Shown here piece after piece: positions 18,501 to 18,665 of a DNA stretch of 64,000 nt. A program made the position numbers and the translations under genes. Source of the stretch: Eledone cirrhosa. Lineage: Eukaryota. Every line of letters starts with the position of its first letter. Position 1 is the first letter of the stretch. Where the stretch lies: NCBI GenBank assembly GCA_964016885.1, contig OZ024754.1, positions 11,842,001 to 11,906,000 of the forward strand. Direction: 5' to 3'. The notes under the pieces were generated by a model, which made no database searches, had not been told where the DNA came from, and worked only from the letters and a program-made list of their open reading frames with translations.

Positions 18501-18665
18501 TATTGATTTAAAACTGCACTATTCACAAGTGTTTTTTAACCTTCATATCATGTCTCCCTATTTTATCTGACGAAAACGCAAATGTCATCGCATGATGATA
18601 TTTGTTTTTGAAATGCGCATAATAAAATACATGGAACTCTTTTAACCATCTTTTGATCTTATATA
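18501..18665 (+). mobile_element. ~165-bp hammerhead-bearing element between (TA)n tracts, copy 1
   Basis: Homologous copies at 30639-30805 and 53495-53655. Confidence 0.75.
18559..18629 (+). ncRNA. Type I hammerhead ribozyme
   Basis: TATTTTAT-CTGACGA-stem II (aaatgtcatc/gatgatattt)-GAAA-TGCGCA-TA-ATAAAATA; perfect 8-bp stem I, palindromic stem III. Confidence 0.8.

What the first reader, a model, noticed from the sequence alone, without database searches (positions are those of the whole stretch)
18501..18665. Three-copy ~165-bp retrozyme-like family (18501, 30639, 53495)
Seen: three dispersed copies with similar boundaries, each next to TA-rich microsatellite. Stem I (TATTTTAT/ATAAAATA, extendable past a bulge by catg/catg) and the core are conserved while stem II diverges, strongly so in copy 3. 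Predicted cleavage is after AUA (18621) or GUA (53613). There is no ORF and no Pol III box. Inference: a non-autonomous element or solo pseudo-LTR in which the ribozyme core is the constrained part.
Basis: partly seen in the sequence, partly recalled or inferred. Interest (0 to 1): 0.72.

Follow-up and report, generated by a model that had tools for sequence, protein, structure and literature searches.

The report
Hammerhead-bearing ends of Penelope transposon
The three short repeats are the end pieces of an abundant Penelope-type jumping gene, each with a predicted self-cutting RNA fold; this is a known kind of element, and the main extra is that many copies start at one fixed base, likely the start of the element's RNA.

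Summary
The three copies and the type I hammerhead fold are real. They are not a retrozyme. The unit is the pseudo-LTR (pLTR) of an autonomous Penelope-like element with the marks of the Hydra clade. Full copies read pLTR, tail, 800-aa reverse transcriptase/endonuclease frame, 3' UTR, pLTR, and sit in (TA)n. The genome holds 24,808 exact matches to a 20-mer of the ribozyme; head-to-tail junctions were found at one locus only. Core and helix III are invariant between subfamilies (0 of 18 columns against 22 of 82 in the flanks), and stems covary across families. Window copy 2 has a private core mutation. Of 100 unselected copies, 17 start at exactly one base at an initiator-like motif, often after an extra G, and 1 starts at the cleavage site. 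22 of 25 inverted pairs carry the tail on one arm only. Solo pLTRs are therefore likely short cDNAs run off the RNA 5' end. No RNA data or cleavage assay was available. Hammerheads in pLTRs and an octopus Hydra family are published, and this scan reported the general system before on other DNA of this genome.

The parts
18498..18662 (+). Copy 1: solo pLTR of the Penelope-like element, without tail, inside (TA)n
   Evidence: 40 of 40 scored candidates (of 998) are 100% identical over 160 nt; 20 of 30 fetched loci continue upstream into the element's 3' UTR and 10 of 30 start at the same ATATG
18559..18629 (+). Type I hammerhead of copy 1: 8-bp stem I, core, stem II of about 15 bp with a mismatch at its 4th position, 8-nt self-complementary helix III (18613-18620), predicted cut after 18621
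   Evidence: Descriptor scan, duplex energies, covariation; cleavage untested
30636..30800 (+). Copy 2: solo pLTR of the subfamily that has intact frames; private A15.1-to-G core change at 30751, likely inactive
   Evidence: 97.7% identical over 175 nt to both pLTRs of the intact element L123; subfamily majority has GAAA
30611..30635 (-). Short junction piece 5' of copy 2: 8 nt matching the inverted tail end (30611-30618), likely an aborted second arm, then a repeat of the pLTR start
   Evidence: Sequence; 11 of 20 short unpaired tail-less copies have an inverted tail start upstream
53492..53660 (+). Copy 3: solo pLTR of a more diverged subfamily; hammerhead 53552-53621 with G10.1-C11.1, predicted cut after 53613
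   Evidence: Closest genome copies 95-97% identical; broken frame pieces 52-74% identical to the 800-aa protein upstream in 3 of 10 long loci
19321..19597 (+). Solo pLTR plus tail of a sister family with the same ribozyme layout (hammerhead 19403-19468)
   Evidence: downstream frame has RRIRWR and SDKT and is 56% identical over 481 aa to the 800-aa protein

Best explanation
The 165-bp unit is the hammerhead-bearing pseudo-LTR of a high-copy Penelope-like retrotransposon with the sequence marks of the Hydra clade, and the three window copies are solo pLTRs, likely made by the element's own reverse transcriptase and endonuclease. Shown from sequence: full copies read pLTR, about 90-nt tail, short 5' UTR, one 800-aa frame, 3' UTR, pLTR with or without tail, and end in (TA)n; 3' ends fall at two fixed sites; many 5' ends fall at one fixed base. 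Inferred: (1) the endonuclease cuts (TA)n on both strands; (2) the two DNA ends prime at two internal RNA sites, the pLTR end and the tail end, which gives head-to-head arms with one tail; (3) priming in the RNA's first pLTR runs off the capped 5' end after about 165 or 255 nt and leaves a solo pLTR, while priming further down, or a jump to the second pLTR, gives longer copies; (4) the ribozyme would cut mainly as a dimer through its 8-nt palindrome or with protein help, is kept under selection in the master elements, but does not set either genomic end. Odds: pLTR of this element 0.95; two-ended priming 0.75; RNA-start run-off 0.55; dimer cleavage 0.55.
For: Architecture: 10 of the 13 long frames visible (part of that output was cut) have a whole or partial direct pLTR plus tail upstream and a pLTR 3.0-3.9 kb downstream; 12 of 13 reach the full C-terminus. 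33 of 150 scored hits (hand count; 13,489 candidates) lie in open frames of 800 codons or more. Protein: SDKT 122, YRDD 357, CxCX5C 659, CxxC 759, CxH 787, as Craig et al. describe for the Hydra clade. A model built from 13 sequences (pLDDT 76.6) has a telomerase reverse transcriptase as best Foldseek hit, E 1.1e-7. Copy number: 24,808 exact 20-mer matches, control 0; 12 pLTR hits in 8 of 60 evenly placed 10-kb stretches. Ends in the first 100 anchor matches on contig C1: 3' ends 56 without tail, 40 with tail, 4 running on towards the frame; 5' ends 17 at one base and 27 within -10..+3, against 0.18 per base inside the pLTR; 44 run more than 60 nt into the 3' UTR. One-tail rule: 22 of 25 inverted pairs, p = 8e-5 (1 of 26 pairs left out because one arm runs on towards the frame). 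Extra G before the start: 27 G to 11 C among the first 100 of 1,347 matches (12 C that continue the element left out; hand count) against 26 to 42 in random DNA, p = 0.002. Selection: 0 of 18 core/helix III columns vary among 7 subfamily majorities against 22 of 82 flank columns, p = 0.010; 98.2% of cells paired and 47 double changes in 19 distinct sequences of this and sister families. Published parallels: two internal start sites, both strands cut, ribozyme not needed in vitro (PMC11167929); internal promoter in the Penelope pLTR (PMC2377424).
Against: No RNA run holds the stretch, so expression, start site, circles and cleavage are untested. The motif at residue 34 is RRLRWT, not the RWK given for the clade, and no tree against the published Hydra proteins was built. 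Pfam and NCBIfam gave no match, nor did the PDB sequence search; Foldseek TM-scores are low (0.31) and the endonuclease domain was not matched separately. The extra G weakens to p = 0.08 (13:10 against 20:40) once junctions that could be a duplicated ATATG are left out; in my own loci 21 of 74 starts had a G, and about 6 of 24 other truncation points did too. The start ATATG itself resembles the (TA)n target. In the 5 elements whose two pLTRs could be compared, private changes were shared in 2, so strand transfer is not shown. No intact frame was seen with a pLTR identical to copy 1 or copy 3. The control ignores relatedness, and only 46 of 500 shuffles had to be beaten for the pair-count measure.
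Confidence: 0.9

Rival explanations
1. A non-LTR retrozyme: a non-autonomous 165-nt repeat that is expressed from tandem arrays, cut by the ribozyme, circularised and reinserted by a Penelope enzyme.
For: Size and type I ribozyme fit (PMC7229834, passages). One array of four 166-167-nt head-to-tail units exists at G000:C15:27.75 Mb.
Against: 0 of 99 same-strand neighbours within 600 bp; one array locus against 18,572 anchor matches; its four units share private changes absent from the arm beside them, as local amplification would give; the unit is the end of an autonomous element; a circle has no 5' end to explain the fixed start.
Confidence: 0.04
2. Same element, but the fixed 5' boundary is a DNA-level effect: the ATATG/CATATG site pairs with the (TA)n target or folds back, or the endonuclease cuts the element there, so that long cDNAs are cut short at this site.
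For: The site is a TA-like palindrome; many head-to-head junctions overlap on ATAT; the anole enzyme cuts AT-rich DNA, also in its own pLTR (PMC11167929).
Against: The boundary is as exact where the neighbour is not (TA)n; longer TA tracts in the 3' UTR are not seen as such a peak, though truncations beyond -300 were not mapped; the sister family starts at an equivalent TC|A motif followed by CTGCC in 5 of 5 copies that do not continue upstream, 2 of them unselected; a YCACT-like motif recurs at this place in further subfamilies (read by eye); G excess.
Confidence: 0.35
3. Ribozyme cleavage makes the template ends, so that copies are reverse transcripts of cut RNA.
For: The core is under constraint; proposed in PMC4209133; several short arms begin at 95-125.
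Against: 1 of 100 copies starts at the cut (0.18 expected) and 3 within 115-125 (p = 0.31); the 3' ends lie about 41 and 130 nt beyond the cut.
Confidence: 0.1
4. Solo pLTRs arise by recombination between the two pLTRs of a full element, as solo LTRs do.
For: Full elements have two direct pLTRs.
Against: Short copies are mostly joined to inverted arms or inverted tail pieces at base-exact starts, which deletion alone would not produce; upstream pLTRs of full elements often carry 3' UTR in front.
Confidence: 0.08

Closest known systems
Hydra clade of C-terminal-endonuclease Penelope-like elements, including Hydra-1_Obim of Octopus bimaculoides (Craig et al. 2021, PMC8557442; section 11 and supplement file 1 part 2 read, passages elsewhere)
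   Same: DKT, CxCX5C linker, CxxC and CxH around E and N, single frame, hammerhead near the 3' end, (TA)n target; the N-terminal and polymerase motifs line up by eye with the printed Hydra-1_Obim protein.
   Different: A different family: other ribozyme sequence; stem II about 15 bp against 3-7 bp in the listed Hydra ribozymes; RWT/RWI for RWK; about 3.7-4 kb against under 3 kb, with a long 3' UTR and an Asn-rich linker; pLTR and tail resolved, where Hydra-1_Obim is listed with 'no pLTR'; tens of thousands of copies.
Hammerheads in the pLTRs of Penelope-like elements (Cervera and de la Pena 2014, PMC4209133; parts 1-2 of 4 read)
   Same: Type I ribozyme in both pLTRs, palindromic helix III, long helix II, mostly single dispersed copies from truncated elements, proposed dimer activity.
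   Different: 8-bp stem I; A-U in place of G10.1-C11.1 in two of the three subfamilies; no extra base between positions 9 and 10.1; an invariant unpaired C at the 4th position of stem II in 20 of 20 aligned sequences.
Poseidon element of Anolis carolinensis, PAc (Frangieh et al. 2024, PMC11167929; parts 1-2 of 4 read)
   Same: Two fixed internal start sites that define a tail; both strands cut and extended; ribozyme cut not reflected in the ends.
   Different: Other clade; tail about 90 nt and upstream of the start codon, not inside the frame; the parts read do not describe a fixed 5' boundary or an extra G.
Metazoan non-LTR retrozymes (PMC7229834, passages; preprint 10.64898/2026.07.22.740005, part 1 of 5)
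   Same: Short non-coding unit with a type I hammerhead; related to pLTRs.
   Different: Retrozymes are defined by tandem units; here one array locus only, and the unit belongs to an autonomous element.

Membership tests
Type I hammerhead ribozyme | CUGANGA, GAAA and UH core closed by three helices, open at helix I | tested here: met
   Copies 1 and 3; copy 2 has A15.1 to G
Type I hammerhead ribozyme | Helices supported by compensatory change | tested here: met
   98.2% paired, 47 double-change cells, 5 of 6 proximal stem II pairs with double changes, slid controls 33-61%; relatedness not controlled
Type I hammerhead ribozyme | Match to an Rfam hammerhead model | tested here: not met
   None among 120 matches at E<=1; the long stem II and short helix III may explain it (inference)
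Type I hammerhead ribozyme | Self-cleavage at the predicted site | not testable with these tools
   No RNA holder listed
Endonuclease-bearing Penelope-like element | Single frame with telomerase-like reverse transcriptase | tested here: met
   800 aa, YRDD; best fold hit TERT, E 1.1e-7; no Pfam match
Endonuclease-bearing Penelope-like element | C-terminal GIY-YIG endonuclease | tested here: inconclusive
   IYEC...YFGST...R...E...N pattern and a beta-beta-alpha model at 678-713; no library match for this domain alone
Endonuclease-bearing Penelope-like element | pLTRs in partial tandem, inverted 5'-truncated arm, optional tail | tested here: met
Hydra clade | DKT in place of DKG | tested here: met
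   SDKT at 122
Hydra clade | CxCX5C linker; CxxC and CxH beside the conserved E and N | tested here: met
   659, 759, 787
Hydra clade | CCHH motif inside the endonuclease absent | tested here: met
   Read by eye: one Cys only between the two halves of the core motif, residues 680-697
Hydra clade | N-terminal RWK motif | tested here: inconclusive
   RRLRWT/RRLRWI here, RRIRWR in the sister family, at the place of RRMRWK in Hydra-1_Obim
Hydra clade | Insertion into (TA)n; canonical hammerhead | tested here: met
   3' flanks; ribozyme rows above
Hydra clade | Grouping with Hydra proteins in a tree | not tested
   Reference proteins were seen only in a paper's supplement and compared by eye
Non-LTR retrozyme | Head-to-tail tandem units each with a hammerhead | tested here: not met
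   0 of 99 neighbours; one array locus for the copy 1/2 subfamilies; no junction pattern was run for the copy 3 subfamily
Non-LTR retrozyme | No coding capacity in the element | tested here: not met
   The unit ends a coding element
Non-LTR retrozyme | Abundant unit-length circular RNA | not testable with these tools
   No RNA holder listed

The most novel reading that the evidence does not exclude
Solo pLTRs of this element are 'strong-stop' cDNAs. The enzyme primes from both ends of a cut (TA)n at two internal sites of the RNA's first pLTR and tail, copies to the capped RNA start, often adds a base opposite the cap, and then joins the other arm or jumps to the second pLTR. This would give a base-exact genomic record of how Penelope-like elements rebuild their ends, without a role for ribozyme cleavage, in a family with many intact frames that could be tested in vitro. 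The single four-unit array would show how a retrozyme can begin from such a piece.
Probability: 0.45. Interest if true: 0.55.

Novelty: new member of a known kind. Interest (0 to 1): 0.32.

Why it matters
As a class the finding is ordinary: hammerheads in pLTRs are published, as is a Hydra-clade family from an octopus. What it adds is a young, very abundant family with intact frames and thousands of exact junctions. How these elements form pLTRs, tails and inverted arms, and what the ribozyme is for, is called unclear in the papers read. The fixed start base, the one-tail rule and the lack of ends at the cleavage site turn these questions into direct tests.

Tried and rejected
Rfam: no hammerhead match. 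Pfam, NCBIfam and PDB sequence search: nothing; the precomputed PF26215 on 10 of 15 relatives was not named by any search. Single-sequence fold useless, pLDDT 33.6. My first guess, recalled, was the Nematis or Neptune clade; dropped after reading the Hydra section. Sequencing runs: no RNA holder listed. Contigs of four runs of unknown or DNA kind from four coded organisms were laid on pLTR, tail and frame start; they show the family in other organisms' runs, but depth was not used as evidence. Pile-up of 5' ends at the cleavage site: not found. Strand transfer from 5'/3' pLTR identity: inconclusive, 5 of 12 elements usable. The sister-family boundary test was weak: most of its 30 loci belong to subfamilies that my reference did not cover, so the '43' values are not boundaries. 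Target-site duplications cannot be read inside (TA)n. Literature searches found no paper on this family or on a cap-derived G at pLTR starts; most subscription papers and Repbase are not covered, and only part 2 of 59 of the Craig supplement plus look-ups was read, so the family may be listed elsewhere. Earlier-findings look-ups by words and by sequence were empty.

Full report
Observation. The three copies are present. Each has the layout of a type I hammerhead. In copy 1, stem I is 18559-18566 with 18622-18629, the core starts at 18567, stem II spans 18574-18609, GAAA is at 18610 and the predicted cut follows 18621. Bases 18613-18620 form an 8-nt palindrome with a self-duplex of -10.5 kcal/mol, the arrangement that PMC4209133 links to dimer cleavage. 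Shuffled windows gave no comparable hit in 30 of 30 trials. Rfam did not recognise the motif, and free folding is significant only for copy 1. Copy 2 carries a private A15.1-to-G change and copy 3 a private change that makes GUA. Copy 3 has no microsatellite on its 3' side.

What it belongs to. Copy 1 has at least 40 perfectly identical copies elsewhere (40 of 40 scored, 998 candidates). In 20 of 30 fetched loci the unit continues upstream into a shared sequence, and in 10 of 30 it starts at the same ATATG. Longer stretches showed pieces of a reverse transcriptase/endonuclease frame in 12 of 20 loci; 9 of those 20 were picked because they looked long, and 3 of the other 11 had such pieces. A protein search gave 13,489 candidates; 33 of 150 scored lie in open frames of 800 codons or more (hand count). 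Fetched examples read pLTR, tail of about 90 nt, short 5' UTR, 800-aa frame, 3' UTR of 0.8-1.1 kb, pLTR, optional tail, (TA)n (part of the output was cut). Copy 2 is 97.7% identical to the pLTRs of such an element. For copy 1 the closest intact frames had pLTRs about 96% identical; for copy 3 only broken frames were seen. A 20-mer across the core occurs 24,808 times. 12 pLTR hits in 600 kb of evenly placed stretches extrapolate to roughly 60,000, with a wide error because hits cluster.

Clade. The protein has SDKT, YRDD, CxCX5C, CxxC and CxH, the marks that Craig et al. give for the Hydra clade, with its (TA)n preference and hammerheads (PMC8557442, section 11). RWK appears as RWT/RWI. Their supplement lists Hydra-1_Obim from Octopus bimaculoides, a different family by eye. 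No library named the protein, but a model from 13 sequences matched telomerase reverse transcriptase best. No tree was built. That the host is a cephalopod rests on recalled SINE resemblance and an earlier AI note, not on a test.

Not a retrozyme. Among the first 100 core matches on contig C1, no neighbours lie on the same strand within 600 bp, 18 of 99 are head-to-head within 600 bp, and 4 same-strand pairs are 3.3-4.4 kb apart. Head-to-tail junction patterns for the copy 1/2 subfamilies gave 3 matches in one four-unit array and 1 fold-back.

Selection. Among 7 subfamily majorities from 262 distinct copies, 0 of 18 core and helix III columns vary, against 22 of 82 flank columns (p = 0.010; core alone 0 of 11, p = 0.06) and 12 of 36 stem II columns. 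In 126 copies not chosen for pLTR likeness, the core differs at 0.73% of sites, the leader at 2.36% and stem II at 3.15%; 117 of 126 cores are intact. Across 19 distinct sequences of this and sister families, 98.2% of cells pair, and the palindrome is kept through a change from GCGC to ATAT. The constraint most likely acted on master elements; dead copies decay, as copy 2 does.

How copies are made. The first 100 matches to an anchor downstream of the cut site (of 18,572) were all mapped. 3' ends: 56 at the pLTR end, 40 at the tail end, 4 running on. 22 of 25 inverted pairs have one tail; I ran this test after earlier AI notes on other families mentioned such a rule. It fits the anole element, which cuts and extends both strands and starts at two internal sites (PMC11167929). 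5' ends: 17 at the A of ATATG, 27 within -10..+3, 22 spread over positions 4-127, 1 at the cut, 44 far upstream. The peak base is the A of a TCA motif, and a sister family starts at an equivalent TC|A. Penelope has an internal promoter in its pLTR (PMC2377424, passages). An extra G precedes the start more often than expected (27 G to 11 C against 26 to 42, p = 0.002), but only p = 0.08 without possible ATATG duplications. I infer that the peak is the capped RNA start and that solo pLTRs are run-off cDNAs; a DNA-level hot spot remains a serious rival. Neither end coincides with the ribozyme cut.

Verdict. A new family of a known kind, with an ordinary class but unusually clear junction data. 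Papers seen: PMC8557442 and its preprint (passages, section 11, supplement look-ups and part 2 of 59), PMC11167929 and PMC4209133 (parts 1-2 of 4), PMC3846280 (passages, Discussion), PMC7229834 and PMC2377424 (passages), 10.64898/2026.07.22.740005 (part 1 of 5). Unread supplements may list this family. Interest 0.32.

Noticed in passing
window 19321-19597 (+): Solo pLTR plus tail of a sister Hydra-type family with the same stem I and an ATATATAT helix III; an anchor shared by its wider group occurs 39,878 times.
   Followed up: partly
window about 29766-29854 (-), core at 29849: A further hammerhead-like motif with a 5-bp stem I and a CCGCGG palindrome; no hit in the 600-kb random sample.
   Followed up: no
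window 16045-16873 (-): Broken C-terminal part of a more distant frame of the same type, 31-40% identical to the 800-aa protein.
   Followed up: partly
window 30395-30424 and 30611-30640; also 18836-18956: Fold-back palindromes: 30 nt mirrored across a 186-nt TA run beside copy 2, and a 121-nt near-perfect palindrome in a neighbouring repeat.
   Followed up: no
L143-L202 (600 kb of G000): 52 hammerhead descriptor hits of many families, some probably false; the genome is very rich in such motifs.
   Followed up: no
L344, G000:C15:27.746-27.747 Mb: The only head-to-tail array found: four 166-167-nt pLTR units with shared private changes, joined to an inverted arm; a possible beginning of a retrozyme.
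   Followed up: partly
L138, G000:C2:47.113-47.123 Mb: Six copies, 1.5-1.8 kb apart, of a frame fragment of this element fused to other sequence, without pLTR.
   Followed up: no
L123:1840-4239, residues 580-657: Asn-rich low-confidence linker between polymerase and endonuclease, like the inserts described in Adineta vaga Penelope elements.
   Followed up: no
Stem II, 4th position (window 18577): An unpaired C is invariant in 20 of 20 aligned ribozymes of this and sister families; a candidate tertiary contact with the bulge beyond stem I.
   Followed up: no
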